Virus record (IMG/VR): IMGVR_UViG_3300033074_001413
Coordinates: 1-64,000 of that record
Direction: 5' to 3' (one strand)
Source of the DNA: a virus
Lineage: Duplodnaviria; Caudoviricetes
Length of the DNA: 64,000 bases
Position numbers and translations under genes: made by a program
Shown: piece after piece, positions 4,486 to 64,000 of the stretch
Position numbering within the stretch: the stretch's first letter is position 1
How the letters are laid out: each line of letters begins with the position of its first letter
The notes under the pieces: generated by a model
What the model was told of the DNA's origin: nothing
Database searches by the model: none
Seen by the model: the letters and a program-made list of their open reading frames with translations, nothing else

Positions 4486-5679
4486 GTGCGTGAATTGGCT
4501 ACAAACGTTATCCGGACCCTCCGGGAACACGGCTTCCAGGCGTGGCTGGTCGGTGGGTGTGTACGGGATATCCATCTCAACGTCGAGCCGAAAGACTACG
4601 ACGTGGCCACCGACGCCACCCCTGCTCAAATCAACGCTATCTTCCCCGACTCTGACTTAGTCGGCGCTCACTTCGGTGTGGTCATTGTTCGCGGTGAAAC
4701 TGGCTACATCGAAGTCGCCACATTCCGCAAAGACCATGGCTACAGCGATGGCCGTCGCCCCGATGAAGTGTCATTCGTGACTAACCCCCAGGATGATGCT
4801 GCTCGTCGCGATTTCACCATCGGTGCCATGTTCATGGACCCTGAGACCAACGAGACTCTAGATTTCTTCGGCGGGCTAAACGACTTGCATAACGGAGTCA
4901 TTCGCACGGTTGGCGACCCCAACGTCCGATTCGCCGAGGACTACATCAGAATGCTTCGAGCCATCAGGTTCGCCGTTCGGTTCAAGTTCTCCATCGATCC
5001 GATGACCATGGTGGCGATCAGCAGCAACGCACACAAAATCACCAACATGGCGGCGGAGAGAATCCACGGGGAGTTGGTTCCTATTCTCTCGCATCGGAAT
5101 GCTGATTACGGCGTGGCCCTCCTTATACAGAGCGGCCTTCTACAACACATTCTTCCGGAGGCTGATCAGCCAGCCACCCATTACAGGTTTCAACAGGTTG
5201 GTGAATTCTCGTTCCCACTGTCGATGGCCATCCTGCTGACCCACTGCGATCAGCGCATCATCGAGTCGGTGATGAGGCGGATAGTCTGTACCACCAAAGA
5301 GACCGAAGAGACAGTCTGGCTGGTTGCCAACCGGAACAGCTTAATGACGGCTTGCACTATGCCAGTCCACGAGTTGAAGAGACTCTTGCGACATCAGTAC
5401 GCAAGGCACCTCACCGCGTTCTACCGGACGGTGAAAGTGATCGAACCGTTGACCGCCATCTGCAATGGGTTGAGCTACATCGCCCGCCAGGAATGGACGC
5501 ATGAGGATCTGTGGCCGACTCCTCTCATCAACGGTGAAACGCTCAAGGGCCTAGGAATGACCCCAGGCCCTCAGTTCAAAGTGGTTCTAGAAGCTGTTGA
5601 GAACGCTCAACTCGACGGTGAGATAACGACCGTGGACGAGGCTCTTGACCTCGTTGCCTCGTTACACATCAACGTCTAG
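4486..5679 (+). CDS. cca: tRNA nucleotidyltransferase (class II CCA-adding enzyme)
   Basis: LVGGCVRD, KDYDVAT, EVATFR, RRDFTI and EDYIRMLRAIRF motifs; lacks the poly(A) polymerase G[RK][RK]F motif (has LVGAHF). Confidence 0.9.
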   Translation: MRELATNVIRTLREHGFQAWLVGGCVRDIHLNVEPKDYDVATDATPAQINAIFPDSDLVGAHFGVVIVRGETGYIEVATFRKDHGYSDGRRPDEVSFVTNPQDDAARRDFTIGAMFMDPETNETLDFFGGLNDLHNGVIRTVGDPNVRFAEDYIRMLRAIRFAVRFKFSIDPMTMVAISSNAHKITNMAAERIHGELVPILSHRNADYGVALLIQSGLLQHILPEADQPATHYRFQQVGEFSFPLSMAILLTHCDQRIIESVMRRIVCTTKETEETVWLVANRNSLMTACTMPVHELKRLLRHQYARHLTAFYRTVKVIEPLTAICNGLSYIARQEWTHEDLWPTPLINGETLKGLGMTPGPQFKVVLEAVENAQLDGEITTVDEALDLVASLHINV

Positions 5680-9115: not shown

Positions 9116-9246
9116 TCATTTGGTTTTCCAGTCTCTCCGATTCTCTCCATTCGTAAACCATTTTACCACAGAAGAGGGGAAATGGTCAACCTACCCTACG
9201 CCTCATCTGTTGACTATCTCGAATGCTAATGTTATTCTTGAAAAGA

Positions 9247-12538: not shown

Positions 12539-13206
12539 TGATAGATTTCTATGTTGAAGACCGGGTCAACCACAACGAAGTTGGCACAGAATATGACAGA
12601 GTTGTCTTTGAAAAGATCAAAGAAACTCTAGGCTCTAGTGATCTCAAACTTCTTGCAGTTGAAAATTGCCAAAGAACCAACGATGACTGGGCAGGTACAG
12701 ATAAGATATTTGTCACCAGTGGTGGAAGATTTCGTGTCGATTTCAAAACTGTGTTTAACTACTCATTCCCAGTCAAGTTAATTCATAGTGCCGACATCAC
12801 ACCACATCCAGAATGGGCTAATATACAGTTATACTATTGGTTCTACAGGAAACCCATCTGTGATTTTATTGCAGTCATCCATAGAAGTAGTAAAAAGGTG
12901 ATTGGTGTTTATATCACAGAAGTAGCGTGGGCTATCACCCTCAAGTATTGTTTAGAGTTTATCAACAAATATAGTAAGGCGGTATATGCCAATATCAACA
13001 TTAGGAAAAACGGGAGTCAATTCCTGTCGTCAGCAGTATACGTTCCTATAAGAGATTGGCATCAGCTATACTTAAAATATGAAAATACCCCAACATCAGA
13101 AATAGTAGATGAACCGTTTGATGCCCTGAGCATATTTCAATACATAAACCAGAAATTCCCATCCTGGCTTAAATCGGCTATAGACAATTACAATAAAAAG
13201 GGGTGA
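12538..13206 (+). CDS. Putative PD-(D/E)XK nuclease (possibly a free-standing homing endonuclease)
   Basis: DWAGTDKIF...RVDFKT motif; looks more AT-rich than its neighbours. Confidence 0.5.
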   Translation: MIDFYVEDRVNHNEVGTEYDRVVFEKIKETLGSSDLKLLAVENCQRTNDDWAGTDKIFVTSGGRFRVDFKTVFNYSFPVKLIHSADITPHPEWANIQLYYWFYRKPICDFIAVIHRSSKKVIGVYITEVAWAITLKYCLEFINKYSKAVYANINIRKNGSQFLSSAVYVPIRDWHQLYLKYENTPTSEIVDEPFDALSIFQYINQKFPSWLKSAIDNYNKKG

Positions 13207-14309
13207 TAATGGAGTTAGCAGAATTAAGTAATGACGAACTCATTGCTCTCGAGGAAAAACTGGATCTAGAGATCGCCTCCGCCGACCTCCGCCAAAAGGC
13301 CGTTAAGGTCTCCATGAACAGTCTCTATGGTGTTGTCGGTAACGGCTACTTCCGGTTCTTCGATGTGGACAACGCCGAGGCGGTGACCATCACCGGACAG
13401 CTTATCATTCAATATATCTCAAGAGAGTTGGACAAATATCTCAATGAACTATTTGGTACAACCAACTACGAGTATGTGATCTACTGCGACACTGATTCCG
13501 TATACGTCCGACTTGAAGAGTTCGTAAACAAATACTTCGCCGGGAAGCCACCGGAGTTCATCACCAAGAAGGTCGATAAGCTCTGTAAGGACAAGATTGA
13601 AAAGGCTATTGAGAGAATCTGTGAGGAGATAGTCTCCAAGGTCCTAAATGGTGTCCAGGGTCATCTCAGCATGAAACGTGAGGCCATCGGCGACAAGGGC
13701 ATCTGGACGGCCAAAAAGAGATACTTGGTCAATGTGCGCGACATGGAAGGGGTTGTGTACGCGGAGCCTAAAATCAAGTATATTGGCGTAGCCCTCGCCA
13801 CAGCGACGACACCCAAGTTCTGCCGCGATAGGATGCTTGAAGCTATTAAGATCCTGATGAAAGGCGATCAGGATAAGCTGATTGAGTATATTGAAGAACA
13901 GCGGCTTGAATTTAATAAGCTCGCCCCAGAAGACATTGCCTCGCCACGGACCTGCAACGGTATTGAGAAATACTCGGATGCCTCAACAGTGTTCAAGCCA
14001 CGGTGTCCATTCCACACCAAAGGTGCGATCATATACAACTATCTGGTCCGCAAGATGGGTCTTGAAAGTAAACTACAGTATATCAGAGAAGGAGAGAAGA
14101 TTAAGTATCTCTATCTGATAGAACCCAACCCAACGCCGGATAGGGCCATTGCATTCCTCAATACGCTCCCCAAAGAATTTGGGCTGCACCAATATATCGA
14201 CTATGACACTATGTGGAGTAAGGGATTTATCGAACCACTCAATCTTATTCTCGAGCCAATCGGGTGGAGATCGGAGAAGGTAGCTTCCCTGGACTGGATG
14301 TTTGAATGA
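13203..14309 (+). CDS. 43B: Family B DNA polymerase, C-terminal half (gp43B-like)
   Basis: QKAVKVSMNSLYG motif B, YCDTDS motif C, WTAKKRY, and C-terminal clamp-binding-like SLDWMF. Confidence 0.95.
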   Translation: MIMELAELSNDELIALEEKLDLEIASADLRQKAVKVSMNSLYGVVGNGYFRFFDVDNAEAVTITGQLIIQYISRELDKYLNELFGTTNYEYVIYCDTDSVYVRLEEFVNKYFAGKPPEFITKKVDKLCKDKIEKAIERICEEIVSKVLNGVQGHLSMKREAIGDKGIWTAKKRYLVNVRDMEGVVYAEPKIKYIGVALATATTPKFCRDRMLEAIKILMKGDQDKLIEYIEEQRLEFNKLAPEDIASPRTCNGIEKYSDASTVFKPRCPFHTKGAIIYNYLVRKMGLESKLQYIREGEKIKYLYLIEPNPTPDRAIAFLNTLPKEFGLHQYIDYDTMWSKGFIEPLNLILEPIGWRSEKVASLDWMFE

Positions 14310-47434: not shown

Positions 47435-48580
47435 TCAATGTGCGACATTAACACGTTTCCACTTCCTACCGACGCGAATGGTGGATTTACCGACGAGTTT
47501 TGGTACACCGGATATGCGGCAATCGTCTATCTCAACCGCACCAGCCTTGATAAGACGTTGGGCTTCGGTATTTGACGACGCCATGCCAGCCGCGACCATT
47601 ACACGATCAAGACGGTCCTCCTGGACGGAGACCTCCTCAATGTCCGTTGGCTTTTCACCACGCGTGAATTGCTTCTCCCATTCTTCCTGTGCGATGTCCG
47701 CTGATTGACGGTCATGGAGCCATTCGACAATCCTCCATGCCAGTTCGAGCTTACATATCCTTCTATCCAGGTCTGGGCTAGCCGGATTGATGAATACCTC
47801 CGGGAACAGTGTCCCCCACCAACGAAACATCAGCGCGTCGGAAATGCTCATTACCTTGCTGAACATCTCGAACGGTGCTTCATTCAGCGCGATGTGGTTG
47901 CCAAGCGACTTGGACATCTTCTGGACGCCGTCAAGCCCCTCGAGCAACGGGACTGTGGCAATAACCTGAGGCTTGGCTTTGCGTAGGCGCATGTACTCAC
48001 GCCCGATCATCAGGTTGAATAGCTGGTCGGTGCCGCCAAGCTCGATGTCCACGCTCTCAATATGCGAGTCGTAGGCTTGCAGAAGTGGGTATACCAGTTC
48101 ATGCAGGTGGATTGGGGATTGGTCTGCGAACCGCTTCTTGAAATCGTCGCGTGCCATGATCTGCTGGAGCGTAAAGCTCGACAATAGACGAATCACGTCC
48201 GCGAAGGAAAACTTATCGAACCATTTGTTGTTCTCATGGACGCAGGTCTTGTCCTTATCCAGGATCTTGTAGACCTGATCCAGGTACGTAAGGGCATTCC
48301 GGCTGATGATGACCTCGTCTAAAGCGGGACGTAGGGAGTTGCGGCCAGTCGGATCACCGATTGCTGCAGTGGCAGTGCCGACGATCATCATCACGGTGTG
48401 ACCGTGGTCCTGGAACGTACGAAGGGTTTTGAGCAGGACGGCGTGGCCGAGATGGAGGTCTGGTGCAGTTGGATCGAACCCGGCTTTCACACGCAGTGGC
48501 TTTCCACTCGCGATCAACGCGTCGAATTCTTTCTCATCCACAACCTGTACGAATCTGTCACGCAGCTCCATGCCATTCAC
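47435..48580 (-). CDS. tyrS: Tyrosyl-tRNA synthetase
   Basis: KAGFDPTAPDLHLGH, IGDPTG, YPLLQAYD, ELGGTDQLFN, KMSKS, C-terminal S4 domain. Confidence 0.96.
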   Translation of the reverse strand: MNGMELRDRFVQVVDEKEFDALIASGKPLRVKAGFDPTAPDLHLGHAVLLKTLRTFQDHGHTVMMIVGTATAAIGDPTGRNSLRPALDEVIISRNALTYLDQVYKILDKDKTCVHENNKWFDKFSFADVIRLLSSFTLQQIMARDDFKKRFADQSPIHLHELVYPLLQAYDSHIESVDIELGGTDQLFNLMIGREYMRLRKAKPQVIATVPLLEGLDGVQKMSKSLGNHIALNEAPFEMFSKVMSISDALMFRWWGTLFPEVFINPASPDLDRRICKLELAWRIVEWLHDRQSADIAQEEWEKQFTRGEKPTDIEEVSVQEDRLDRVMVAAGMASSNTEAQRLIKAGAVEIDDCRISGVPKLVGKSTIRVGRKWKRVNVAH

Positions 48581-51325: not shown

Positions 51326-54300
51326 ATGGCTCTTTCATTCAATTTTGCTCCATACTTTGACGACTTTGATCCGGCCAAGCATTTCTATCGGGTAATCTTC
51401 CGGCCAGCCCAGGGTGTCCAGGTCCGTGAGCTTAACCAAATGCAGTCTATCCTGCAGGAGCAGGTGTCTAGATTCGGCGCTTACTTCTTCAAGCATGGCG
51501 CAATGGTTATCCCAGGACAGGTTGGGTTTGATGCGAAGTTGGCCTATGTCCGTCTCAAGAGCATATCACGGCCATTCGATCCACTCATTATTGGTAAACA
51601 GGTATTCGGATTGTCAAGTGGTCTGGTTGCAGAAATTCGTGCGTACACTCCAGCAACAGTGAACGATCCTGATACGATCTATGTCAAGTATCTCAACTCC
51701 AACGTAGCTGGAGATCTTACCTTCCAGGTTGGTGAGCAGCTTCTGTTAATCGATGCCGATACCAGTATCGCCAAAGCCGAAGCCGCCGCAGCGGAACTCG
51801 CTGCCGCCACTGTGCAGCTTAGCACTGGAGTTGGGTCAGTCAGTACTCTTGATCCAATCTGGCACGTAACTAGCCCGTTGGGTGGTGGCTCTCATGCCGC
51901 TACGATTATTGACTGGAATCCATACTGGCGCGTACCTAGCGAAGGATATAACTGGATCTCGGCGAGCGGTGCTACTCAGAGTATGCCGCTTGGTGATTAC
52001 ACCTACAACACCGGGTTCAGCATTGATAACGGTTCGACCAGCGCAATATTCGAATACACCATCGCAGCGGATGATCTCGTTAAGTCGTTCACACTTACTG
52101 GTCCTGGTGGATACGTTGCGACGAAGGACTACTCTGCTCTAAACCTGCGTGGTGGTCTAGCCGACATGATCGACAACTTACCGGGTGACGGTAGTTATGG
52201 ACTGACCATCGTTGTCGAAAATCAAGCGAGCGCATACAGTGGTCTTCAACTAAGCACTGGTCAGGGAGCAGTTGGTAGTCTAGACACTCTCTGGCAGGTG
52301 AAGGCACCAAACAGAGCAAGACGTGGTGCTGCCCTGATTATCGATCCAATGGCTCACTGGTTCACTCCACCATCTGGTGCGAAGTGGATTGGTAGCGTGG
52401 CTGACCAGGATGTTGTCGGTGTCTATGAGTATTCCGCACAGTTCAATGTCGACACTGGAACCAACTCCAGCACGTTCACCTACTCAATAGGCGCTGATAA
52501 TCGTGTGAAACAGTTGGTATTGACTGGCCCACAGGGTTTCAAGTCAACCAAGACTTATTCCGGCCAGCACTTCGGCGATGGGAACCATGGCACGTGGGGT
52601 GAGATGGTTGAGGACTCCATCAAGGGTATGCCTGATGGCGACTACACCCTGACCGTACAAGTTGAAAATACTGAGACAGTAGTCACCGATCAAACGCCAG
52701 TCGATGCCAGCACCGGGACTGGTAGCTGGACCGTATTGACTCCTGGCTCCGGGACATTCGTTGCAGCCAACGTTATTACCAAGGATCCACTCTGGATCGA
52801 CGTGGCTGGTGCTGAATGGGTCGGTGCAAGTTCCAATGCAGTCACACAGGGTATCTACACGTTCAAGCGCGACGTCACAATCAACGCCAGCGCCAATAAT
52901 GGTGTGTTCAATTACACCATCGCTGCTGATAATAGCATTAGAAAGATCACCCTAACTGGTCCTGACGGGTATATCGCCACACGCGACTACACAGAGCAGG
53001 ATAGATATAGCGAAGCCATTACAGACAGTTTCTATGAGCTACCGGGTGATGGTACCTACACAATCACGGTGGATGTAAAGAATCTGCCTGTACCAACTCG
53101 CATCCAGACTGAGTCAACAGTAATGTTGAACACCGGGTTTGGTGTGATCGGATCGAATGATAACCGCTGGACTGTAAAGGTTCCTGGTAGTGGATCATTC
53201 GTGCCAGCACACGTGATTGCTCGTGACGCTAGCTGGATGGTTGAGGGAGTGAACCAGCACTGGATCTCCGCTGGTACATCCAGTGCTGATGCTGTTCCGG
53301 CTGGAACGTACACGTTCAAGACCGAGTTCGAATTTGCATCCGGATCAGACTCCGGAGTCCTGAACTTCACTGTCGCGGCCAACGATGCTATCCGGACAGT
53401 AAAGCTGGAAGGTCCAAGCAGCTACTCCAGCACCAAGACATATTCAGATCTAAGCAACTACCATAATGGGGAGACCATCGCTGACATATTCGATGATCTT
53501 CCTGGAGATGGCAGCTATACTCTCACCATCACGGTAGAGAATAATGCTGGACCAGCGGTCCGTGTCAACCTTCCGACCATATCATTGAACAGTGGCTCTG
53601 GAATAGTTGGTTCTACTGACACTAAATGGACAGTGAAGCGTCCATTTAGTGGAACGTGGGACCCGGTATATGCAGTCGGTGGTGGTGCTGGTTGGTTCTC
53701 TGCCCCTGCCGGATCGCACTGGGTGTCACCGGATCATGATAACAACGCTCTTGCGAAAGGTGTATATGAGTACGCCACTACATTCAATATTACTGGTGGG
53801 GCAGACTTAGCCACACTCACACTCGACATTGGTGCTGATAATATCCTGAAGGATCTTGTACTAACTGGTCCTGGTGGATATTCAGTTACGCGCACATACG
53901 GAACAGACGACCGCACTGTTGCACCACTTCATGAGTCTATAACCAACCTTCCTGGAGATGGTACTTACTGGCTGAAGATTAAAGTAGAGAACTATCCGGT
54001 TCCACAAAGAGTCCAGACTGAAAGTGCCCAATCCATTGTGACCGGACAGGGTGGTGGAACACCTGGGACAGCTGACCGTCGGTGGACTGTTTTGAATCCA
54101 GATGCACCATCAGCGATACCAGCACCATTGGCCTCTCACCCGAACTGGTTTGCTCCAGATGCTGGTACATCCTGGATCGGATATACGGCTGGCGCAAACG
54201 CGGCACTACCACTCGATGTCGTCATCCTTTGCGATACCACTGGTAGCATGGGAGCCACCATACAACAGATTAAAACAAACATCGACTCTATCGTCGATGA

Positions 54301-57300
54301 TGTGTTTAATCAGAGTGATAACGCTAAAATCGCTATCGCACAATATAGAGACTGGGGCGACTCGTTTGTTTATGCTGTGCCGACCCCTCTATCAGACAAT
54401 AAGACTGTTATTCACGCGGCGGTCCAGGGGCTTGTTGGTGGAGAAGGTGCTGATACACCAGAATCTAACCTATACGCACTTAAGCAAGTAGCTGACACTA
54501 TGAACTGGCGTGCTGGATCGATGCGCCTTATATTCTGGTTCGGTGACTCTAGCGGCCACAGTCCGTCGCCTGACGCGTCTCAGGCATATGTCCCTGGTAC
54601 ATCTGGCGTCACACCAGTCACGCTAGACGCTGCTGCTAACGCCCTAACCGCCAAAGGCATTAAGGTCTATGCCACGAACGTAAATGGGTTAAATGGTGGT
54701 GGTGATGGCCTTAACGCAACAGGGCAGGCCCAATTCTTTGCTACCGCCACTGGCGGCGCTTACTTCAACGCTTTAAGCGGAAGTGAAATCGCCAGTATAA
54801 TCACCGACACCATTGCTGGATTGGTCCAAAATGGTGGAGCACCTGCTGGTGACTATACATTCTCTACCACGTTCTCAATCCGGACTGGTTCCGATTCTGC
54901 ATCCTTTGTTTATAGCCTGGGATCAGACAACTCCTGTCTATCGGTGACAGTAACTGGCCCTAGTGGGTTCCACGCGTCTAGATCACACCTTGGTGATCAC
55001 TTCTTGGAAGCCCAACGCAATGACGTTCGCAATCAGACCTTTACTGGTCTGCCTGGAGATGGTGATTACACAATCACTGTCGTAGTCAACAACGCCTATG
55101 TGCCAACCGGAAACGCTGTCGGCCTATGGTTCAGCGCGGTTGTTACTCCTGCGATTGTGAGTGACAATATATCAACACAGACCGGGCTATTGGTAGCCAA
55201 CGCCACAGTATCACCGAGCAAGTGGAACTATGACATCCCATCGTCCATAGGACTTCTGGTCAGCGCCAGCGCAGTACCAAGTATCCTTGATCCGAACCAT
55301 CCAACGTCAAGTGGTCTAGCAATGTCGGCGGTCTTTGTGCCACGCGTCATTGACCCACCACCAGGATCTGGATTCATGCTGAAGGGATCGGTAGCTCCTG
55401 GTACTCCAACCGGACTCCTGTTGGATAATGCGAGAGTCATTCCAAATGTCGCATCGACGTGGACCGTTGATATCAACGACCCACTTGGGTTGACAGTATC
55501 TGCTGGTATCGAACAGGGAGTGTACTTCTATAATGGGTTGTTCGTGAGCGTCGACAAGCAGTTACTGCTGCTCAACAAATACAACAATCTGTTCACTGGT
55601 ACGGTCGGTCTCAAAGTAGTTGAGAGTATCATTACCGAAGATGATGACATCAGCTTGCTTGAGCCAGAGCAAACATCACCGAACTATACCGCTCCTGGAG
55701 CACACCGCTACAAGGTGGAGATGTTCCTTGAAGCCCGTGACTACGACAACCCAGTAACGTCAGATTTCATTGAGTTGTTGAAGCTGACCGATTCTGCTGT
55801 AGTCACCCAGGTGACCAAGACAGATTATGATATCATTCATCAGACTCTGGCCCGTAGGACCAAGGACCAGTGGGGCGACTACGCCAAGACACAATTCGGC
55901 ATAGATGTTCGTGAACATCTTGACACCTCATGGGTGGCTGCTGGTACTGCGCAAGCAGGTGCCTCGGAGACATTTACTCCACCAGTTCCGGCAAACATCA
56001 CCCTAGCCTTCTTGTCCTCCAATGTGGATAACTTCTACCAAGGATTTACCATCCACTTGAAGACTGGAGTGGGCGGCGGTCAGACAAGAACGATCACATC
56101 CTACAACGGCGCTAGCAAGATTGCCTACGTCGACAAGAACTGGGATGTATACAAGACACCGGACAACACCACAGAATACACCATCAACGACCCAAGCAAA
56201 TCCAACCGTGGAATATTCTCTCCAGCGGATGGTGGGTCCGAATCTAAACTGGCAGTCGGTATCGAAGCTGGTAAAGCATATGTGAATGGTTATGAGGTTA
56301 ATAATCAACACACAACCTACATCCCTATCGATAAAGCCAGATCTACAGAGACCCATGAAGGATCAACGTTCGCCGAGTACGGTTCTTATCTATTCGTGAA
56401 GAATCTGCATGCAATGCCAGTTCCGTCTCTAACTCAGGGACGTGACTATCTGCAGATCTCCATAATGGGAACCAAGGCCACTGGCACCTATTCCGCCAAT
56501 GACGAAATTGGTACAGCACGCGTACGCGACATTGAATTTGCCTTCGGTCCTAACCCGAACGACTCCAACGCGGTGTTCCGCATCTATCTGCAAGACATCG
56601 CAATGAAGGCCGGATACGACATCGACTTTGCGAGATCGTTCTTCCTGACCAGCGGAACCAACAATCAGAACGGGTTGAATGCCTGGGGTGATATCGTCAC
56701 GGTATTCGACATGGCCAACGTTGTTGGTCAAGGATTCGTTGCTGGTAACGACATCACTGGTCCAAACGGGATTGGTACTGAGGTGGTGGTATTGTGGGAT
56801 TCCCTTAACGGAGTGGTGTTCACTGAACCGAAATCCGGAAACCCGCAGCAGATCACATCGCTTGGTCCGGTAAGTGCTACCGGGTCATCGACGGCCAATA
56901 TCTCCACCAGAACACAACTGTTCGATGGATCGCTGTTCATGAACGTCTGGCCACTAGGTCGGACGGTAGTAAACTCGCTCCATCCGGGTGCTAAACTGAC
57001 AGCGCAGCCAACTGCCGTCACTAATAACACCCTTCGGTTCCCATCAAGCGCCTCGAACGCTAACGACTTCTACATCAACAATAATGTGCGCATTATCTCT
57101 GGTCCTGGCGTGGGTCAGATGCGCACCATCACTGATTACGTCGGTTCAACCAGAACGGCCACGTTCGACTCCGCATGGGACGTCGGTAATCTGCCAACCA
57201 CCTCCAGTATATTCGTATGCATGGAGCCAACCATAGTCAACTATCACGCACGTAAGGTGATACAGGCTACTGGTGTAAACGGCACATTTACTTTCAGTTC

Positions 57301-60300
57301 CACCGATCCGTTCGTACATCCGTTCAATGCATACGACTTTATGGCGGTGTGTATCGCCAAGGGTGGTGGTAGCCCATCATTCAATGTCGGAGAGGTGATT
57401 GACCTCGGTCTGTATGCACCGGAATATCCGGTTACCAATCCGCAGTGGACACAGTTCGCCGTCCAGATTGGTAGCAGTACCGACACACTCCGGTTGGTGG
57501 CCACTGTCAACAAGACAGCACAGAACGAGAAGTACAAAGTATGGACTCCATATTCGGTAGGTGATACTACCACCTGGATGCCATACACCAGTGGCACGGG
57601 CGCTGGTGTGCTAGCCAACGAGATCGGCCTTGAAGTGGCTGACGTCCGCGACTTCAGAGTGTACCAAGGTGTGAAGACATGGGAGATCCCATTCAACGCT
57701 TACACTAACACGTTCACTCCTGGCATGCAGGTAGTTGGTGTTACCAGTGGTGCACGCGGTCAGGTATTAGACTTTGACACCATCGGTGAGATACTCACTC
57801 TCACTTCGGTGAGCGGTACATTCCTTGATGCCGAAACAATTGAGTGCATGTCTGATCAGACCATCACCGCTAATACCGATGGTCCGTTCACCGTTGTCTA
57901 TGCCACGCCTGATCTCAATTCCGATCCGGTCAACTATGTGGAAGTCACTGACAACTACTCGTTAGACGACGGTCAGAGAGACACACATTATCAACTTGCT
58001 AAGATTATTCGGAAGCCTGGATATCCAGTTCCTCCGTCCGACACCAATCTACTCATCACCTGGGACTACTTCAAGCATGTTGGTACTGGTGACTTCTTCA
58101 GTGTGGATTCCTATCTCGGACAGGTCGCATATCAGGACATCCCAGTCTATGAGAACTCACTTGGCCGTTCATACCCACTACGTGACAGTCTGGACTTCCG
58201 TCCTACCATCAGTTCGAATGGGTTGAATTTTCATGCTGCTGGTAGCGTGTGGTCCGACCCATTGCTAGTCGGCGATCAAATCACTTATTCCTCTGTCTAC
58301 TATCTGGACAGAATTGACAAGATCTTCCTCGCGGAGGACGGCACGTTCAAAGTTAACCGTGGTACTTCATCGTTGACTCCGGTGCCACCAGAGAACATTC
58401 CTAACACAATGCTTCTCTACACGCTGCATCTCGATGCCTATACAATGGGACCGAAGGCAGTCAAGGCTAAAATGACCGATAATCGCGGATACACAATGCG
58501 CGACATCGGTAAACTCGAAAAGCGCATTGAGAATCTTGAGTATTACACACAGCTTAATCTGCTCGAGCAGGACACAGCCAAACATCAGGTCAGAGACACT
58601 AAAACCGGACTGGATCGCTACAAGAACGGATTCGTGGTTGATAATTTCAAGAGCCACGGAACTGGGAATGTGTGGGATGTAGACTACAACTGCGCCGTCG
58701 ATAATGCGGTTGGTGAACTTCGCCCACAATACTATCAGGACAATGTCGGTATCGAATATGTGAGTGATCAGTCGACGGGAGTCATCAGAGTGGGCACCAC
58801 TCTCCCAGGCGACATCCTGATGCTGCCATACTCGCACGAGGCAGTGGTCAGTCAGCCACTCAGTACCAGAGTAGAGAATGTTAATCCATTCACCAACTTT
58901 GGATGGGGTGGTAGTCTCGAACTAATCCCACCATCTGATGAATGGCGCGACACCGCTCGTCGTCCAGATGTTCTGGTCAACGACGATAATGCTATGCGCT
59001 ACATCAACAGACCACTTGGTGTGGTTTGGAATGAGTGGCAGACTAACTGGACTGGTGAGTGGTCCGACACCAGCGCTCGTACGATTAATTCATCTTCGAC
59101 TTCGACGCGTAGCTCTGATGACGTCATCACCAATACGACGAATACGACCACGGAAGTAACGCAAACCCGTGACGTGCAGCAGTCTAGATCTGGGACCCGC
59201 ACTACAGTTGTTCCACAGACAGTGCGCGTGGATACCGTAGACCGTGTTGTGAACGTGGAGACAATTCCGTTCATTAGATCTCGCGTAGTTCAGTTCATCG
59301 GCAAGAGGATGAAACCAAAGACGCGTGTCTACCCATACTTCGATGGTAGATTCGTGGGACAGTGGGTTAGACCAACCCGCGTTCCTGGGTTGACCCCATA
59401 CATTATCCCATTCGACGAAGCACCAATTCAGGCCGACAACAACGCGCTTGGACTAACAAGCGACACGTCGACTCCAAGTGAAACGTTGGCTGCTGGCTCT
59501 ACCGATATCACCAATATCAACACTGGTGCGCCACTTGTCAGACCGACTGGTAACCCTGGACCAAGCGGGGAAGCTACGACCAACGCGTCGTCTTCGGATA
59601 GAACTACTCCTCCAACAACCACTGGAGCAGACCTTACTTCCGGTCGCATGGTTCCAAATGATACCATAGACAGGTTGCGAGTGGTGGCTCCTGGTGTATG
59701 GAGTCTTCCGGCCACATTCATACAGAACAACATTGATATCGGCAAGACCCTTGGTGGGGCTGCTCAACCTACGCTTCACCCGTTCACGCCAATGCCATTG
59801 GTGGTCCCAACCATCACGGCACGCGACATCAACGTGACGGCGATCCGTGACGCACATACCGAACTAACTGGTCGGACAGACCGTGAATGGAGTCTGCCAA
59901 CACCAGCTATGACCGTAGCTGGAACGGCAATCACGCCGACAGTGACATTCAGACCATCTCCGGACTGCGTGGTAGTTAAAGTATCTGGCGACAGTCAAGC
60001 AATAATGGCAAGCCAGACATTCCCACAACCACTGGTTGTACAGGTCAACCGCAGTGGAATTCCAGTGTCTGGTGCTACAGTGCAATGGAAAGTCACTGGG
60101 CCAGCAATAGTTTCGGGACTAGGGACACGTGAAGGCGTAGTAGCGACGGATGCCGTTGGTAGAGCGCAGGTGACTGTTACTGCCAGCGATGCTCCTGGGG
60201 CTATAGTGGTCACCGCCGACATCGGCGGAACGCCAATCCAGTTCAATCTATCAACCACGTTCAACACTAACCGGGTTACCGGAGCAGTGGCAACTGGTCC

Positions 60301-63300
60301 AGCCATCATCCCAACCGGAGCGTTTGTTGGAGGTGGTGCACCAACTACCGTGGTAATGGGTACAGAGACGACCATTGATGGCGTCAATCCAGCTACGACA
60401 CTATTCAGAACCAACACTACTGGCGGAGACCGTGGAGTAGCTCCTATCGCACCGACACCTCCAACGGTGGCAAGTGATCTGTTGTCCATTCAGACCTCTC
60501 TACAGAAGATTTTAGAGGCGTATGGGAAGGATCCAACGGCGTTGCTTGGTGCTGGACACCAAGTGGGCGTTCCATACTACGTCAGTGAGTTAGGCAAGAA
60601 TTACACAGTGGTAGGATACACTTCAACGTGGCAACCGATTGTTATTGTCCCACGTTCGGATGCTAGCAAATATGCTACTGATGTATACTCTATCAGTCTA
60701 TCCACTGGCGCTCTAGCCTATATCGTCAACGACGAAGGATACGCAATATTCAAGCAGCAGCAAAGTGGCACCGCCATGATGATGCCTGGAGTGCAGATCA
60801 CATGGCTTGGTGGTACAACCGGACGCAACGACACGCTAGTGCGCATATTCCAGCCAGGGGCGGCTACAACAGTAACAACTGGTGTGGTGGCCACTGCGTC
60901 TACGGCACTAACGTCGAATCAACTCAACGATGCCCGCGCCGTCATCATGGCCAACCCAGGTATTCTACTTCAGATTTCTGGGCTAACCAATGAGGAACAA
61001 CATGTTAGCTCGGTCACGGAGATCAACAATCTCCTGGTCGCCAAGCCAGAGGTAGCAAGCGCTGTACTGTCAGGCAGGACTGATACATCCACAAGCAGCA
61101 TCACGACGTCAGTTCAGAGTGGCTCCGCCAGATTCCAAATGCTGGATGACCCAATCAGAATTGATCCGGCCACTTACAGCCTCAGCCAGTCCACTCTGGC
61201 TCCAACGGCAACCATTCCGACAGGTACGGCGTTCGGTAATGAACCGAAATATGGCGACCCTCTCTACACCAACGGGGTTGGTACAGTAACTGGGGAATTC
61301 TGGATTCCTAACACAGATGCTATCCACTTCCGTGTTGGTCGGAGATTGTTCCGCCTCACCAGTAGCCCGAATAACAACAAGAACGCTGAGACGTGGGCTG
61401 ACGCCGTGTACTCAGCGCAGGGTACGCTATACACCAATCAGCGGACAGTAACTAGCATTCGTGAGCCACACTACGTCGTCGAGAACCTGTACGACTCCGC
61501 AAGCTATACCGAGACACAAACCGACCTTCGATTCGAGTCACAGTCCTGGGATGAACCAGCTCCTCAACCAATCGAGCCTCCAGCACCAGTCGTTATTGAC
61601 CATAATCCGACTCCTGTGATTACGGAAGCGACCAGGACCACGACGGAAGCAACTAGAACTACTACAGAGGTAGCTCCGCCAGCAACCGAGCCAGAGCCTC
61701 CGGTGTTTGAGCCACCAATAGAAGAGCCACCTCCACCAGCGCCAGACCCACCACCTCCAGTGGTGTTGAGTGTGACGACCACAACCACGTCCACGTCAAC
61801 TTGGTTCGACCCATTAGCTGAGACATTCCTGGTGGACACCAAGGGTGGGTACTTCCTGTCGAAGATTGACTTGTTCTTCGCGAGTATCGATCCACGCATG
61901 CCAGTGACCGTCCAAATCAGAACGACCGTAAACGGGTACCCAAGCAAGAAGGTTCTACCGTTCGCCGAGAAGACCATGTACCCAGAGACCGGGGCGATCA
62001 AGGTGAGCGATGATGGTAGCATTCCGACCACATTCGAGTTCCCAGTTCCAGTATATCTGGAAGAGAACCAGGAATACGCCTTCGTGGTGATGGCCAACAC
62101 CAACAACTACCTGCTGCACACAGCAAGAATGGGTGAACGAGCGTTCACAACTGGTGCGGTTGTCAATCAGCAACCATACGCTGGTGTTATGTTCAAGAGC
62201 CAGAATGCCAGTACCTGGAGTGCTGACCAACTCGAAGATATAAAGTTCACGATATACAGAGCCAAATTCGATGTATCGTCCCAGGCCACAGTATACTTCC
62301 GCAATAAGGATCTCGATACTGTAGTGCTTGGAAACAACCCATTCCATACCGCACAAGGTAGCGACATCGTTCGTGTCCTACACAGCGATAATGGAATGGT
62401 CCGCAGCAATGACAAAGGAAGCGTCGTTACCATCGGGCATGTCCAGGATGCTCCTATCAACGGAATCCCGGCTGCGGCCTTGGTCGGCGACTTCACGGTG
62501 GAGTCCGTTGATCTGGACGCCTACACCATCAAGGCCAATCTAGCGGGAGATTTCGACAAGGCAACCATTAGCAATGGTATATCCGGTCCATCGTTGGTAG
62601 AGGTCAGCAGGGAGTTCCAATACAACCTGATGCACCCAACGTTCGGTACCATGATTATGCCTGGAACCGGAATAAGCTGGTTCGCACGCACCATTAGCGG
62701 TAAGGCAGTTCATAACAATGAGCTGGCCACACAAACACCATTCCAGAAGAGTGATTTCGTGGCCATTGTGCCGAACACCAACATTGAGTATAGCGTTCCA
62801 CAAATGATCGCTACTACCAAGACAGAGACACTGAATGTGGTTGGCAACAGTCCGTTCGATAGAAGATCACTTCTATTCCGTGCCGTGATGTTCACCACAC
62901 AGGACAACTTGACACCAATGGTTGACCTGCAGAGAATGAGCGCAATTGTTGTCCACAACAGGTTGGATGATCCAAACTTCAACAACCAAACGTTACCACT
63001 ACACGACAAGGGAGTGACATTTACCGCCACCTCCGATGAGTTCATTGAGTTCGGTGGATATGACCATCTGGAAGTAACCGGAGTAGCAGAGAGCGGTGGA
63101 GCTACCAGTATCAATATCGGTAGCCTCGGTGTAGAGATTGACGACTACTATGTGAACATGTCGGTGAAGGTGATTGCCGGAAGCGGCCAGGGTGAAGAGA
63201 AAATCATCACCGCTTACAGTGCACTAACTCGTGACGCCACAGTCGACAGTGCGTGGCACACCAACCCAGATAGCACATCCCAGTTTGAAATCTGGAGAGG

Positions 63301-64000
63301 ACAGTCCATGCATCTTCGCAAGAAGGTATTGTCCGCAACAGCGACCCGTGGAGCCAACAGTAGTGTCAACATCGCTGGTCCAGTAACGGCACCGGATGTC
63401 TACAAGGGTATGATCGTGAGGATAGTTGGTGGCACTGGTGCTGGACAGGAGCGCGAGATTATCAGCTACCAAACCGACGGTAGCCACTCCCCAGAAGGGA
63501 AGATCACCGTCGACTCACCATGGCTTGTGAATCCGTCCAATACCAGCAGCATTATCATTCTAAGCTATGGAACCGATCTCAACTTCGATAATATGCACGC
63601 TGGTCGTGGTATCGTCATCAGTGGGGCTAACAACTCAGCCAACAACCATGACATCGACAATACCGTCCAGATCATCAAGGTGACACGCAACATAATGACT
63701 TGCAACACCACGTTCAAGCCCGAAAAAGGTAGTGGTGGCGTGGTAATCACGGCATACGACAAATATATCAGTGAGGAGGCGTCTGGTGGGTGCTCCGCAT
63801 CAAGTCGTTACATCACCAAGCGGTTTACTCTGAACCAGTCGGCTAATTCACTCCGACTGACACTGAGTATATCGAGACCAGTAGGTAGCTTCGTAGATGT
63901 CTACTACAAGACACTCTTGATGGACGCCGGAAGCCACTTCGATGATGTGCCATATACCTATATGGAACTGGAACCTGGAGTGAATATGGAGCCACAGGAT
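51326..64000 (+). CDS. Giant DUF4815/VrlC-like virion structural protein (at least 4225 aa, truncated by the window end)
   Basis: MALSFNFAPYFDDFD..FYRVIFRP..VQVRELNQMQSILQ; GVYFYNGLFV; APGAHRYK; YTMRDIGKLEKRIENLEYYT; KNGFVVDNF; DPLAETFLV. No stop found in the parts translated, and the ORF track has no terminated ORF in this frame. Confidence 0.92.
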   Translation, partial: MALSFNFAPYFDDFDPAKHFYRVIFRPAQGVQVRELNQMQSILQEQVSRFGAYFFKHGAMVIPGQVGFDAKLAYVRLKSISRPFDPLIIGKQVFGLSSGLVAEIRAYTPATVNDPDTIYVKYLNSNVAGDLTFQVGEQLLLIDADTSIAKAEAAAAELAAATVQLSTGVGSVSTLDPIWHVTSPLGGGSHAATIIDWNPYWRVPSEGYNWISASGATQSMPLGDYTYNTGFSIDNGSTSAIFEYTIAADDLVKSFTLTGPGGYVATKDYSALNLRGGLADMIDNLPGDGSYGLTIVVENQASAYSGLQLSTGQGAVGSLDTLWQVKAPNRARRGAALIIDPMAHWFTPPSGAKWIGSVADQDVVGVYEYSAQFNVDTGTNSSTFTYSIGADNRVKQLVLTGPQGFKSTKTYSGQHFGDGNHGTWGEMVEDSIKGMPDGDYTLTVQVENTETVVTDQTPVDASTGTGSWTVLTPGSGTFVAANVITKDPLWIDVAGAEWVGASSNAVTQGIYTFKRDVTINASANNGVFNYTIAADNSIRKITLTGPDGYIATRDYTEQDRYSEAITDSFYELPGDGTYTITVDVKNLPVPTRIQTESTVMLNTGFGVIGSNDNRWTVKVPGSGSFVPAHVIARDASWMVEGVNQHWISAGTSSADAVPAGTYTFKTEFEFASGSDSGVLNFTVAANDAIRTVKLEGPSSYSSTKTYSDLSNYHNGETIADIFDDLPGDGSYTLTITVENNAGPAVRVNLPTISLNSGSGIVGSTDTKWTVKRPFSGTWDPVYAVGGGAGWFSAPAGSHWVSPDHDNNALAKGVYEYATTFNITGGADLATLTLDIGADNILKDLVLTGPGGYSVTRTYGTDDRTVAPLHESITNLPGDGTYWLKIKVENYPVPQRVQTESAQSIVTGQGGGTPGTADRRWTVLNPDAPSAIPAPLASHPNWFAPDAGTSWIGYTAGANAALPLDVVILCDTTGSMGATIQQIKTNIDSIVDDVFNQSDNAKIAIAQYRDWGDSFVYAVPTPLSDNKTVIHAAVQGLVGGEGADTPESNLYALKQVADTMNWRAGSMRLIFWFGDSSGHSPSPDASQAYVPGTSGVTPVTLDAAANALTAKGIKVYATNVNGLNGGGDGLNATGQAQFFATATGGAYFNALSGSEIASIITDTIAGLVQNGGAPAGDYTFSTTFSIRTGSDSASFVYSLGSDNSCLSVTVTGPSGFHASRSHLGDHFLEAQRNDVRNQTFTGLPGDGDYTITVVVNNAYVPTGNAVGLWFSAVVTPAIVSDNISTQTGLLVANATVSPSKWNYDIPSSIGLLVSASAVPSILDPNHPTSSGLAMSAVFVPRVIDPPPGSGFMLKGSVAPGTPTGLLLDNARVIPNVASTWTVDINDPLGLTVSAGIEQGVYFYNGLFVSVDKQLLLLNKYNNLFTGTVGLKVVESIITEDDDISLLEPEQTSPNYTAPGAHRYKVEMFLEARDYDNPVTSDFIELLKLTDSAVVTQVTKTDYDIIHQTLARRTKDQWGDYAKTQFGIDVREHLDTSWVAAGTAQAGASETFTPPVPANITLAFLSSNVDNFYQGFTIHLKTGVGGGQTRTITSYNGASKIAYVDKNWDVYKTPDNTTEYTINDPSKSNRGIFSPADGGSESKLAVGIEAGKAYVNGYEVNNQHTTYIPIDKARSTETHEGSTFAEYGSYLFVKNLHAMPVPSLTQGRDYLQISIMGTKATGTYSANDEIGTARVRDIEFAFGPNPNDSNAVFRIYLQDIAMKAGYDIDFARSFFLTSGTNNQNGLNAWGDIVTVFDMANVVGQGFVAGNDITGPNGIGTEVVVLWDSLNGVVFTEPKSGNPQQITSLGPVSATGSSTANISTRTQLFDGSLFMNVWPLGRTVVNSLHPGAKLTAQPTAVTNNTLRFPSSASNANDFYINNNVRIISGPGVGQMRTITDYVGSTRTATFDSAWDVGNLPTTSSIFVCMEPTIVNYHARKVIQATGVNGTFTFSSTDPFVHPFNAYDFMAVCIAKGGGSPSFNVGEVIDLGLYAPEYPVTNPQWTQFAVQIGSSTDTLRLVATVNKTAQNEKYKVWTPYSVGDTTTWMPYTSGTGAGVLANEIGLEVADVRDFRVYQGVKTWEIPFNAYTNTFTPGMQVVGVTSGARGQVLDFDTIGEILTLTSVSGTFLDAETIECMSDQTITANTDGPFTVVYATPDLNSDPVNYVEVTDNYSLDDGQRDTHYQLAKIIRKPGYPVPPSDTNLLITWDYFKHVGTGDFFSVDSYLGQVAYQDIPVYENSLGRSYPLRDSLDFRPTISSNGLNFHAAGSVWSDPLLVGDQITYSSVYYLDRIDKIFLAEDGTFKVNRGTSSLTPVPPENIPNTMLLYTLHLDAYTMGPKAVKAKMTDNRGYTMRDIGKLEKRIENLEYYTQLNLLEQDTAKHQVRDTKTGLDRYKNGFVVDNFKSHGTGNVWDVDYNCAVDNAVGELRPQYYQDNVGIEYVSDQSTGVIRVGTTLPGDILMLPYSHEAVVSQPLSTRVENVNPFTNFGWGGSLELIPPSDEWRDTARRPDVLVNDDNAMRYINRPLGVVWNEWQTNWTGEWSDTSARTINSSSTSTRSSDDVITNTTNTTTEVTQTRDVQQSRSGTRTTVVPQTVRVDTVDRVVNVETIPFIRSRVVQFIGKRMKPKTRVYPYFDGRFVGQWVRPTRVPGLTPYIIPFDEAPIQADNNALGLTSDTSTPSETLAAGSTDITNINTGAPLVRPTGNPGPSGEATTNASSSDRTTPPTTTGADLTSGRMVPNDTIDRLRVVAPGVWSLPATFIQNNIDIGKTLGGAAQPTLHPFTPMPLVVPTITARDINVTAIRDAHTELTGRTDREWSLPTPAMTVAGTAITPTVTFRPSPDCVVVKVSGDSQAIMASQTFPQPLVVQVNRSGIPVSGATVQWKVTGPAIVSGLGTREGVVATDAVGRAQVTVTASDAPGAIVVTADIGGTPIQFNLSTTFNTNRVTGAVATGPAIIPTGAFVGGGAPTTVVMGTETTIDGVNPATTLFRTNTTGGDRGVAPIAPTPPTVASDLLSIQTSLQKILEAYGKDPTALLGAGHQVGVPYYVSELGKNYTVVGYTSTWQPIVIVPRSDASKYATDVYSISLSTGALAYIVNDEGYAIFKQQQSGTAMMMPGVQITWLGGTTGRNDTLVRIFQPGAATTVTTGVVATASTALTSNQLNDARAVIMANPGILLQISGLTNEEQHVSSVTEINNLLVAKPEVASAVLSGRTDTSTSSITTSVQSGSARFQMLDDPIRIDPATYSLSQSTLAPTATIPTGTAFGNEPKYGDPLYTNGVGTVTGEFWIPNTDAIHFRVGRRLFRLTSSPNNNKNAETWADAVYSAQGTLYTNQRTVTSIREPHYVVENLYDSASYTETQTDLRFESQSWDEPAPQPIEPPAPVVIDHNPTPVITEATRTTTEATRTTTEVAPPATEPEPPVFEPPIEEPPPPAPDPPPPVVLSVTTTTTSTSTWFDPLAETFLVDTKGGYFLSKIDLFFASIDPRMPVTVQIRTTVNGYPSKKVLPFAEKTMYPETGAIKVSDDGSIPTTFEFPVPVYLEENQEYAFVVMANTNNYLLHTARMGERAFTTGAVVNQQPYAGVMFKSQNASTWSADQLEDIKFTIYRAKFDVSSQATVYFRNKDLDTVVLGNNPFHTAQGSDIVRVLHSDNGMVRSNDKGSVVTIGHVQDAPINGIPAAALVGDFTVESVDLDAYTIKANLAGDFDKATISNGISGPSLVEVSREFQYNLMHPTFGTMIMPGTGISWFARTISGKAVHNNELATQTPFQKSDFVAIVPNTNIEYSVPQMIATTKTETLNVVGNSPFDRRSLLFRAVMFTTQDNLTPMVDLQRMSAIVVHNRLDDPNFNNQTLPLHDKGVTFTATSDEFIEFGGYDHLEVTGVAESGGATSINIGSLGVEIDDYYVNMSVKVIAGSGQGEEKIITAYSALTRDATVDSAWHTNPDSTSQFEIWRGQSMHLRKKVLSATATRGANSSVNIAGPVTAPDVYKGMIVRIVGGTGAGQEREIISYQTDGSHSPEGKITVDSPWLVNPSNTSSIIILSYGTDLNFDNMHAGRGIVISGANNSANNHDIDNTVQIIKVTRNIMTCNTTFKPEKGSGGVVITAYDKYISEEASGGCSASSRYITKRFTLNQSANSLRLTLSISRPVGSFVDVYYKTLLMDAGSHFDDVPYTYMELEPGVNMEPQD

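What the first reader, a model, noticed from the sequence alone, without database searches (positions are those of the whole stretch)
51810..55445. Nested (Russian-doll) domain architecture with a VWA tip inside the giant virion protein
Seen in sequence (frame starting 51326): six ~135-aa beta-sandwich repeats (STG..D..W.V...W...WI...G.Y.(Y/F)...AD(N/D)..LTGP..LPGDG.Y.(L/I)T(I/V).VEN) start at about 51810, 52245, 52700, 53120, 53580 and 54030. A VWA domain (LDVVILCDTTGSMG, ~54212-54830) is inserted in the middle of repeat 6. Directly after repeat 6 come exactly six short G-(L/F)-hydrophobic strands: NAVGLWFSAVVTP, TQTGLLVANATVSP, SSIGLLVSASAVP, TSSGLAMSAVFVP, PGSGFMLKGSVAP and TPTGLLLDNARVIP. 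The DUF4815 core then resumes (GVYFYNGLFV). From recollection, similar galactose-binding-like domains end 'V.N...PTGL.V'. Inference: each domain is inserted before the last strand of the previous one, so the chain runs out through six domains to a VWA tip and returns, donating one strand to each. This would form a locked, extensible adhesin stalk, a deeper version of the nesting in pilus tip adhesins such as RrgA.
Basis: partly seen in the sequence, partly recalled or inferred. Interest (0 to 1): 0.82.

Follow-up and report, generated by a model that had tools for sequence, protein, structure and literature searches.

The report
Nested jelly-roll stalk, VWA tip
A 4,270-residue phage baseplate-type protein carries a 1,220-residue insert in which six sugar-binding-type domains seem to be nested inside one another like Russian dolls, with a von Willebrand A adhesion domain at the far end; this is a rare, deep form of a known architecture, supported so far by sequence comparison and modelling, not by a structure.

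Summary
The ORF from 51326 (4,270 aa, DUF4815) has six 31-42% identical repeats, a VWA domain splitting repeat 6, then six G-(L/F)-hydrophobic strands before DUF4815 resumes. A 2,236-aa paralogue in the same phage and 80 of 80 viral relatives run straight across this site, so the 1,220 aa are a lineage-specific insert.

The repeats belong to an uncurated family of bacterial surface jelly-roll domains (570 hits). An AlphaFold model of one member (pLDDT 87) matches GH2 sugar-binding and CBM folds (Z about 10). About 50 of 54 outside domains have a "PTGL.V.G.V" last strand 1-9 residues after the "V.N" strand. Repeats 1-5 lack it.

Profile comparison tiles the family profile as core (ends at V.N) plus distal strand. 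Strand 2 docks in trans into repeat 5 (ipSAE 0.81, best control 0.51) in a central slot with the family's polarity.

Nesting is therefore the best reading (about 0.72) but is not shown directly. The AlphaFold run on the nested segment failed (pLDDT 45). No homologue exists for the repeat-versus-strand count test. The reverse order rests on topology alone.

Deep recursive nesting is already known in cyanobacterial RNA polymerase SI3, and VWA-tipped nesting in RrgA. This is a new variant of a known kind.

The parts
51326..64000 (+). Giant DUF4815 virion (baseplate-type) protein, 4,270 aa; it runs about 140 nt past the window end
   Evidence: ORF; full length; Pfam DUF4815, 180 bits in three stretches; phrog_358
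51326..51772 (+). Host N-terminal block (residues 1-149), conserved in the paralogue and in cyanophage homologues
   Evidence: Giant 2-169 aligns with paralogue 3-179; cyanophage homologue; phage 812 protein 9euf_0 residues 1-59
51773..51814 (+). Ala-rich outgoing connector (residues 150-163)
   Evidence: Read from the sequence; helix is my inference
51815..52222 (+). Repeat 1 core (residues 164-299), ends at the V.N strand with no closing strand of its own
52238..52669 (+). Repeat 2 core (residues 305-448)
52712..53083 (+). Repeat 3 core (residues 463-586)
53117..53545 (+). Repeat 4 core (residues 598-740)
   Evidence: strands at pLDDT 60-83 in the weak model
53582..53992 (+). Repeat 5 core (residues 753-889), used as chain 1 in the docking run
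54026..54211 (+). Repeat 6, first part (residues 901-962, profile positions 5-56)
54212..54820 (+). VWA domain (residues 963-1165) inserted in a loop of repeat 6; MIDAS-like D970-x-T972-x-S974
   Evidence: Pfam PF00092 above its cut-off; alignment with collagen VI VWA domains
54821..55090 (+). Repeat 6, second part (residues 1166-1255, profile positions 55-142)
55109..55150 (+). Strand 1 (residues 1262-1275), in-line closing strand of repeat 6
   Evidence: 10 residues after the V.N Asn, as in the family; predicted as a strand even in the weak model
55172..55216 (+). Strand 2 (residues 1283-1297), proposed closing strand of repeat 5
   Evidence: Docks on the repeat 5 core through residues 1283-1300
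55238..55279 (+). Strand 3 (residues 1305-1318), proposed to close repeat 4
   Evidence: Motif and order; the assignment is inferred
55301..55342 (+). Strand 4 (residues 1326-1339), proposed to close repeat 3
   Evidence: Motif and order; weakest match to the outside motif matrix
55358..55399 (+). Strand 5 (residues 1345-1358), proposed to close repeat 2
55400..55441 (+). Strand 6 (residues 1359-1372), proposed to close repeat 1
55466..55903 (+). Host DUF4815 resumes (residues 1381-1526), starting with the host's own 'PLGLTVSAG' segment
   Evidence: Giant 1381-1887 aligns with paralogue 161-676 at 46% identity; Pfam 1394-1526

Best explanation
The 1,220-residue insert (residues ~160-1380) is a recursive domain nest. 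It sits in a surface connection of the N-terminal part of a DUF4815 baseplate-type protein. Each of six galactose-binding-like jelly-roll domains carries the next domain inside the arch between its second-to-last ('V.N') strand and its last ('PTGL-type') strand. The innermost domain carries a VWA domain in another loop. The chain therefore runs out through six cores to the VWA and comes back. On the way back it lays down strand 1 for repeat 6, strand 2 for repeat 5, and so on to strand 6 for repeat 1. It then re-enters the host fold at the point it left. That makes seven successive insertion levels.

In this fold the last strand spans the sandwich from the arch end to the end that holds the domain's own termini. 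The domains should therefore stack head to tail into a stalk of roughly 20-30 nm (my inference). Every junction would be double-stranded, and a metal-dependent VWA adhesion domain would sit at the tip. The likely function is host-surface attachment by the baseplate, possibly helped by glycan binding of the jelly rolls.

Shown directly: the insert in the host, the VWA inside repeat 6, and the missing last strands of repeats 1-5. Supported by modelling: a distal strand fills a repeat's empty slot. Inferred: the reverse order, the stalk geometry and the function.
For: (1) The insert is real. The 2,236-aa paralogue in the same phage is continuous where the giant is interrupted (giant 2-169 = paralogue 3-179; giant 1381-1887 = paralogue 161-676). 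In 74 related viral loci that hold both blocks they lie 145-208 aa apart. Six further loci are cut by contig ends, with no room for an insert. None of the 80 has an insert.
(2) Family. A profile of repeats 1-5 finds 570 proteins at E<=0.001, mostly PEP-CTERM or type IX secretion surface proteins. About 50 of 54 outside domains that reach the V.N strand have a recognisable closing strand 1-9 residues later, including each domain of tandem arrays.
(3) That strand is part of the fold. The AlphaFold2 model of homologue P0138 has mean pLDDT 87.3 and closing strand 168-177 at pLDDT ~89-96. GH2 sugar-binding domains, CBM61 and CBM4-2 align over model residues 20-178 at Z 9-10, rmsd 3.2-3.9 over 120-137 residues.
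(4) Repeats 1-5 stop short. hhalign of the repeats with their out-linkers against the outside family gives probability 99.4% and E 5e-22. The alignment ends exactly at the V.N Asn (template column 165). A 21-column profile of the six distal strands has its best placement on template columns 170-179, the closing strand. It is short, with P 0.08.
(5) Repeat 1 has only about 6 residues between its V.N Asn and the first strand of repeat 2, too few for an in-line closing strand.
(6) Docking of the repeat 5 core with residues 1274-1308 scored 0.81, against 0.51 for the best of 3 controls. That mark was reached by 58 of 80 solved complexes and 2 of 110 mismatched pairs; these counts hold only roughly because my own alignment was used. 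The runs agree in at least 92% of contacts and the partner's pLDDT is at least 62. The interface is residues 1283-1300. They run antiparallel to the 'TLTLDIGAD' strand, touch the first strand (1-4) and 44-50, and touch alternate residues of the V.N strand. L1288 lies near the V.N end, which is the family's polarity.
(7) Out-linker and paired return-linker lengths roughly track each other under the nested pairing: about 6/5, 14/10, 11/12, 12/13 and 11/12 residues, for the repeat 1-2 junction through the repeat 5-6 junction.
Against: AlphaFold2 on residues 601-1340 (repeats 4-6, VWA, strands 1-4) gave mean pLDDT 45. Strands 2-4 came out as low-confidence coil, so the direct test failed rather than passed. 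The tools return no coordinates, so pairings could not be read anyway.

A motif matrix built from outside closing strands scores the six strands only -2.5 to 6.3 bits. Shuffles of the protein reach a mean maximum of 8.5. The in-line 'PTRIQTESTV' after repeat 3 scores 4.3, which is as good as the distal strands.

One unrelated 35-residue control also docked at 0.51. The docking pass may reflect likeness to ordinary jelly rolls and says nothing about which strand serves which repeat, or about cis versus trans.

No homologue with a nest was found, so counts cannot be compared.
Confidence: 0.72

Rival explanations
1. In-line closure. The hydrophilic out-linkers (such as PVPTRIQTES, PVPQRVQTES, GPAVRVNLPT) serve as degenerate last strands of repeats 2-5. 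Strands 2-6 are then a tandemly duplicated strand that forms its own small beta-meander or extends the sheet of repeat 6.
For: By length an in-line strand is just possible after repeats 3-5, which have 11-12 residues before the next first strand. 'PTRIQTESTV' scores 4.3 on the outside closing-strand matrix, similar to the distal strands. The out-linkers after repeats 3 and 5 are unusually alike, which suggests a structural role. The failed AlphaFold model did not place strands 2-4.
Against: Repeat 1 has only about 6 linker residues. The linkers after repeats 2 and 5 score -9.4 and -4.0. The profile-profile alignment stops at V.N and does not take in the linkers. The weak model did not predict the out-linkers after repeats 4 and 5 as strands. 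This reading leaves unexplained why exactly five extra copies of the family's last-strand motif follow repeat 6. It also leaves unexplained why strand 2 fits the repeat 5 slot.
Confidence: 0.13
2. Strand exchange between subunits. The distal strands do complete the cores, but those of neighbouring chains in a trimer, giving an intertwined three-chain stalk rather than a nest within one chain.
For: The docking run shows only that a core accepts a distal strand supplied in trans. DUF4815 relatives in phage 812 baseplate structures belong to multi-copy assemblies (81 chains in 15 entries). The tripod proteins of that baseplate are trimers (PMC13433997). Sequence alone cannot tell cis from trans.
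Against: Strand 1 follows repeat 6 at the family's normal hairpin distance, so at least that closure is most simply in cis. The roughly matched out and return linker lengths fit return along the same stalk. That the giant protein trimerises was not tested here.
Confidence: 0.08
3. The cores stay open or are only loosely ordered. The strand region is a flexible, Pro-rich tether with no fixed pairing, and the resemblance to closing strands is a remnant of decayed duplications.
For: Individual strand scores are within the noise of shuffled sequence. The nested segment modelled poorly.
Against: The model's contacts suggest the slot is central in one sheet of the sandwich, flanked by the first strand and the 'ADN' strand (my reading). 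Domains lacking such a strand would expose their core. The six cores keep 21 invariant positions, which argues that they fold. Five of the six strands rank within the top 14 of 4,259 windows of the protein.
Confidence: 0.05

Closest known systems
Gram-positive pilus tip adhesins RrgA (PDB 2WW8) and GBS104
   Same: Domains D1 and D2 are non-contiguous in sequence. The VWA domain D3 with a MIDAS site is inserted between their halves and sits at the tip of an elongated molecule (PMC7893114). The logic is the same: the chain goes out, carries a VWA at the tip and returns.
   Different: RrgA has two host levels built from Ig-type folds, with isopeptide bonds and sortase anchoring. Here there would be six homologous jelly-roll levels inside a phage baseplate protein. 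No isopeptide motif was examined. No sequence relationship was found beyond the VWA fold class.
SI3 insertion of cyanobacterial RNA polymerase beta' (recursive sandwich-barrel hybrid motifs)
   Same: A homologous small beta domain is recursively inserted into itself, up to six levels, producing a long arm (PMC13114784). This is the closest precedent for depth and self-similarity.
   Different: The fold is different (SBHM, not jelly roll), and so are the host (RNA polymerase trigger loop) and the function. SI3 has no adhesion domain at the tip. It has bifurcating nodes, whereas the phage insert would be strictly linear.
DUF4815 virion proteins (PF16075, phrog_358), including the 1,152-aa protein in the phage 812 baseplate structures (PDB 9EUF, 9EUJ, 9EUK)
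   Same: The host protein matches PF16075 (180 bits) and the 812 protein at residues 1-59 and 1419-1525 (E 2.6e-15). In a cyanophage the homologue lies next to baseplate wedge genes.
   Different: None of 80 viral relatives, nor the paralogue in the same phage, has an insert at this site. That the 812 protein is the 'tripod' protein is my inference, not verified.
Uncurated jelly-roll domain of PEP-CTERM and type IX secretion surface proteins; fold class of GH2 N-terminal sugar-binding domains, CBM61, CBM4 and CBM35
   Same: hhalign gives probability 99.4% and E 5e-22 from the first strand through the V.N strand. The fold of a member matches GH2 and CBM domains at Z 9-10.
   Different: In the outside members examined (about 50 of 54 domains) the last strand follows in line. 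In repeats 1-5 it does not. The giant's repeats also have 'LTGP' and 'LPGDG' motifs of their own. Sugar binding was not tested.

Membership tests
Galactose-binding-like jelly-roll domain family of bacterial surface proteins (no Pfam or NCBIfam model) | Significant profile similarity over the domain | tested here: met
   570 hits at E<=0.001 with the repeat profile. hhalign probability 99.4%, E 5.4e-22 over 134 columns. No curated Pfam or NCBIfam family reaches its cut-off.
Galactose-binding-like jelly-roll domain family of bacterial surface proteins (no Pfam or NCBIfam model) | Jelly-roll fold shared with GH2 N-terminal and CBM domains | tested here: met
   Tested on homologue P0138, not on the giant's own repeats. 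pLDDT 87.3. Z 9-10, rmsd 3.2-3.9, 120-137 residues aligned. Foldseek E about 1e-4 to CBM35. For the repeats the fold is inferred from homology.
Galactose-binding-like jelly-roll domain family of bacterial surface proteins (no Pfam or NCBIfam model) | Closing 'PTGL.V.G.V' strand within about 10 residues after the V.N strand | tested here: not met
   Met for repeat 6 (strand 1). Not met for repeats 1-5. The proposal is that the feature is supplied from a distance.
VWA domain (PF00092) | Pfam match above the gathering score | tested here: met
   33.5 bits against a cut-off of 23.8, residues 964-1122.
VWA domain (PF00092) | MIDAS motif DxSxS plus distal Thr and Asp | tested here: inconclusive
   D970-T-T972-G-S974 lies at the DxSxS position in the alignment with collagen VI VWA domains, so Thr replaces the first Ser. 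The distal Thr and Asp were not assigned. The VWA part of the only model was low confidence.
DUF4815 (PF16075) virion proteins | Pfam match above the gathering score, collinear with relatives | tested here: met
   180 bits against a cut-off of 30, in three stretches. Collinear with the 2,236-aa paralogue apart from the inserts.
Nested (discontinuous-domain) insertion architecture, as in RrgA or RNA polymerase SI3 | Host domain sequence interrupted by a complete guest domain | tested here: met
   Shown for two levels. The insert lies in the DUF4815 host. The VWA splits repeat 6 at profile position 55/56.
Nested (discontinuous-domain) insertion architecture, as in RrgA or RNA polymerase SI3 | Distal segments complete repeats 1-5 in reverse order | tested here: inconclusive
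   Strand 2 docks on the repeat 5 core at 0.81 against a best control of 0.51. The strand profile maps to the closing-strand columns at P 0.08. AlphaFold2 on the nested segment failed. The order is inferred from topology.

The most novel reading that the evidence does not exclude
The insert may be a strictly linear, seven-level domain nest: host, then six homologous jelly rolls, then VWA. It would have been built by repeated self-insertion into one beta-arch, giving a double-stranded stalk of about 20-30 nm that starts and ends at a single loop of a phage baseplate protein. Its cores could only close from the inside out, once the C-terminal strands have been made. It would be the deepest such nest known in a virus or an adhesin, with no relative among about 15 billion predicted proteins.
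Probability: 0.65. Interest if true: 0.72.

Novelty: new variant of a known kind. Interest (0 to 1): 0.62.

Why it matters
If the nest is real, it shows how a phage can grow a long receptor-binding appendage from an internal loop of a conserved baseplate protein without disturbing that protein's fold. The chain has to return to where it left, and recursive nesting turns that constraint into a stalk. It would be a second, independent natural case of deep self-similar nesting besides RNA polymerase SI3. That would make it a useful model for asking how discontinuous domains fold in order, and how such architectures arise from duplications. It would also be a possible scaffold for displaying a binding domain on a stiff, double-linked stalk. 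For phage biology it marks a VWA/MIDAS domain as a candidate host-recognition tip in an uncultured large phage.

Tried and rejected
(1) AlphaFold2 on residues 601-1340, with the only clean alignment available (repeats 1-3 laid on 4-6, effective depth about 2), gave mean pLDDT 45 and pTM 0.29, with the strand region below 50. It is unusable either way. Whole-protein homologue rows gave messy MAFFT alignments and were not used.

(2) Searches for homologues with the insert, to compare repeat and strand counts, found only the protein itself in the near-length search and nothing in the shorter-length search. The ESM Atlas gave a best score of 0.75, below its useful range (one search was a size slip).

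(3) A motif matrix of 54 outside closing strands showed that the individual strands are not above shuffled-sequence noise. Only their clustering is notable: 5 of the top 14 windows, crude binomial P about 1e-3.

(4) I tested co-similarity of out-linkers and return-linkers under all 120 pairings. The nested pairing ranks 18th (r 0.54) and the forward pairing 28th, which is inconclusive.

(5) I tested whether the host's N-terminal beta region with its 'PTGL' segment is a seventh, outermost jelly roll. hhalign probability was 0.09%, so I rejected it.

(6) A sequence search of the PDB with the repeat profile found nothing significant.

(7) I could not confirm that the phage 812 DUF4815 chain is the tripod protein. 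The text gives no lengths and no supplement is held.

Full report
WHAT IS THERE. The window comes from a 98,840-bp viral contig, estimated about 55% complete. It encodes a DNA polymerase in two pieces, a DnaB-type helicase, a UvsX-type recombinase, a tRNA nucleotidyltransferase and a tyrosyl-tRNA synthetase. The frame starting at 51326 is open to the window end and gives a 4,270-aa protein. Pfam finds DUF4815 in three separated stretches and one VWA domain. PHROGs finds phrog_358, a family of virion, baseplate or tail proteins of unknown function (PMC8341000).

The sixth is split at profile position 55/56 by about 200 aa that match Pfam VWA above its cut-off. After repeat 6 come six strands of the form G-(L/F)-hydrophobic-hydrophobic...P, spaced 14-22 residues apart. 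After them the DUF4815 match resumes.

THE INSERT IS DEFINED BY A PARALOGUE. The same contig encodes a second DUF4815 protein of 2,236 aa. Giant residues 2-169 align with its residues 3-179, and giant 1381-1887 with its 161-676. About 1,210 residues are therefore inserted at a point that is continuous in the paralogue. A cyanophage homologue, encoded next to baseplate wedge genes, is continuous there as well. In 74 related viral loci that hold both blocks, the blocks lie 145-208 aa apart. Six further loci are cut by contig ends and have no room for an insert. The seventh 'PLGLTVSAG' segment, at 1386-1394, is the host's own, matching 'PTGLAALGH' in the paralogue. The host region is not detectably related to the repeats (hhalign probability 0.09%).

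WHAT THE REPEATS ARE. An exhaustive profile search found 570 proteins at E<=0.001. These are bacterial surface proteins with PEP-CTERM or type IX secretion signals. They carry one to five copies of the domain, and no Pfam or NCBIfam model covers it. An AlphaFold2 model of a 211-aa single-domain member, built on 38 aligned sequences, has mean pLDDT 87.3. It matches GH2 N-terminal sugar-binding domains, CBM61, CBM4-2 and CBM35. The matches have Z 9-10 and rmsd 3.2-3.9 A over 120-137 residues, spanning model residues 20-178.

THE KEY COMPARISON. In the outside family, the strand ending 'V.N' is followed within 1-9 residues by a 10-residue strand, 'PTGL.V.G.V' or 'AMGLNLTG'. I saw this in about 50 of 54 domains, including every domain of tandem arrays. 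In the model this strand (residues 168-177) is confident, and it lies inside the range aligned to solved jelly rolls.

In the giant protein only repeat 6 has such a strand in line. Repeats 1-5 pass from 'VEN' into the next repeat's first strand ('L.(S/N)TG') after 6-14 residues.

Two profile-profile comparisons make this precise. The repeats, together with their out-linkers, align to the outside family at 99.4% probability, and the alignment ends exactly at the V.N Asn. A profile of the six distal strands finds its best placement on the closing-strand columns that come next. Because that profile is so short, P is only 0.08.

DOCKING. I folded the repeat 5 core (residues 753-889, with a 33-row alignment that contains no closing strands in its columns) together with residues 1274-1308. 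The score was 0.81, against 0.51 for the best of 3 controls. That mark was reached by 58 of 80 solved complexes and 2 of 110 mismatched pairs; these counts hold only roughly because my own alignment was used. The runs agree in at least 92% of contacts, and the partner's pLDDT is at least 62.

The interface is exactly residues 1283-1300. The strand runs antiparallel to core residues 77-85. It also touches residues 1-4 and 44-50, and only alternate residues of the 'Y.Y..F' and V.N strands. I read that as a central position in one sheet, packed against the other sheet. L1288 lies by the end of the V.N strand, as in the in-line family. The strand's far end lies near the domain's N-terminus.

Both junctions of the proposed nest are therefore geometrically possible. 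The guest domain would leave and re-enter at one end of the sandwich, and the domain's own two ends would meet at the other.

There are caveats. The pass may reflect likeness to ordinary jelly rolls. One unrelated peptide scored 0.51. The run cannot tell which strand serves which repeat, or whether closure is in cis or in trans.

WHAT FAILED. The direct test, AlphaFold2 on repeats 4-6, the VWA and strands 1-4, gave mean pLDDT 45. The cores were partly formed, strand 1 was modelled as a strand, and strands 2-4 were coil. The tool returns no coordinates, so pairings could not have been read anyway. No relative with a nest exists in the collections searched, so the count test cannot be done. The motif matrix and the linker co-similarity test were not decisive.

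RIVALS. In-line closure by the out-linkers is possible by length for repeats 3-5, and 'PTRIQTESTV' resembles a closing strand weakly. It is impossible for repeat 1 and poor for repeats 2 and 5. It also leaves five extra copies of the last-strand motif unexplained. Strand exchange between subunits of an oligomer cannot be excluded from sequence.

COMPARISON AND NOVELTY. RrgA and GBS104 have two discontinuous domains with a MIDAS-bearing VWA at the tip (PMC7893114). Cyanobacterial RNA polymerase SI3 shows recursive self-insertion up to six levels (PMC13114784). The principle and the depth are therefore both known. What would be new is the combination: a jelly-roll fold, a strictly linear seven-level nest with a VWA tip, a phage baseplate-type host, and no known relative. 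I rate it a new variant of a known kind, interesting but still a prediction.

Noticed in passing
Same contig beyond the window: G000:C1 about 77867-84577 (L003:13867 to L004:577): A second DUF4815 / phrog_358 protein of 2,236 aa is collinear with the giant one but lacks its inserts. The phage therefore carries a plain and an elaborated paralogue.
   Followed up: yes
window about 59411-61246 (giant residues 2696-3307): A second insert of about 610 aa relative to the paralogue, with no Pfam match. It holds Thr/Pro-rich linkers and what looks like a bacterial Ig-like segment. There is also extra material at about residues 1887-2200.
   Followed up: partly
window 53084-53116 and 53993-54025: The connectors after repeats 3 and 5 are nearly identical (PVPTRIQTES and PVPQRVQTES), far more alike than the repeats themselves. 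The return linkers after strands 1 and 3 are also alike. This suggests a structural role or a duplication in units of two repeats.
   Followed up: partly
window 9223-10896 and 13203-14309: The DNA polymerase is encoded in two ORFs that match the N- and C-terminal halves of phrog_262, with three ORFs between them.
   Followed up: no
window 47435-48580 (-) and 4486-5679 (+): The phage encodes a tyrosyl-tRNA synthetase (phrog_9270, E 7e-75) and a tRNA nucleotidyltransferase (phrog_2244, E 1e-57).
   Followed up: no
Proteins P0003-P0170 (outside homologues): The jelly-roll domain, with its 'TG.G..D..W.V', 'W(I/V)', 'G.Y.Y', 'ADD', 'LNG', 'V.N' and 'PTGL' motifs, is widespread in PEP-CTERM and type IX secretion surface proteins. 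No Pfam or NCBIfam model covers it.
   Followed up: partly
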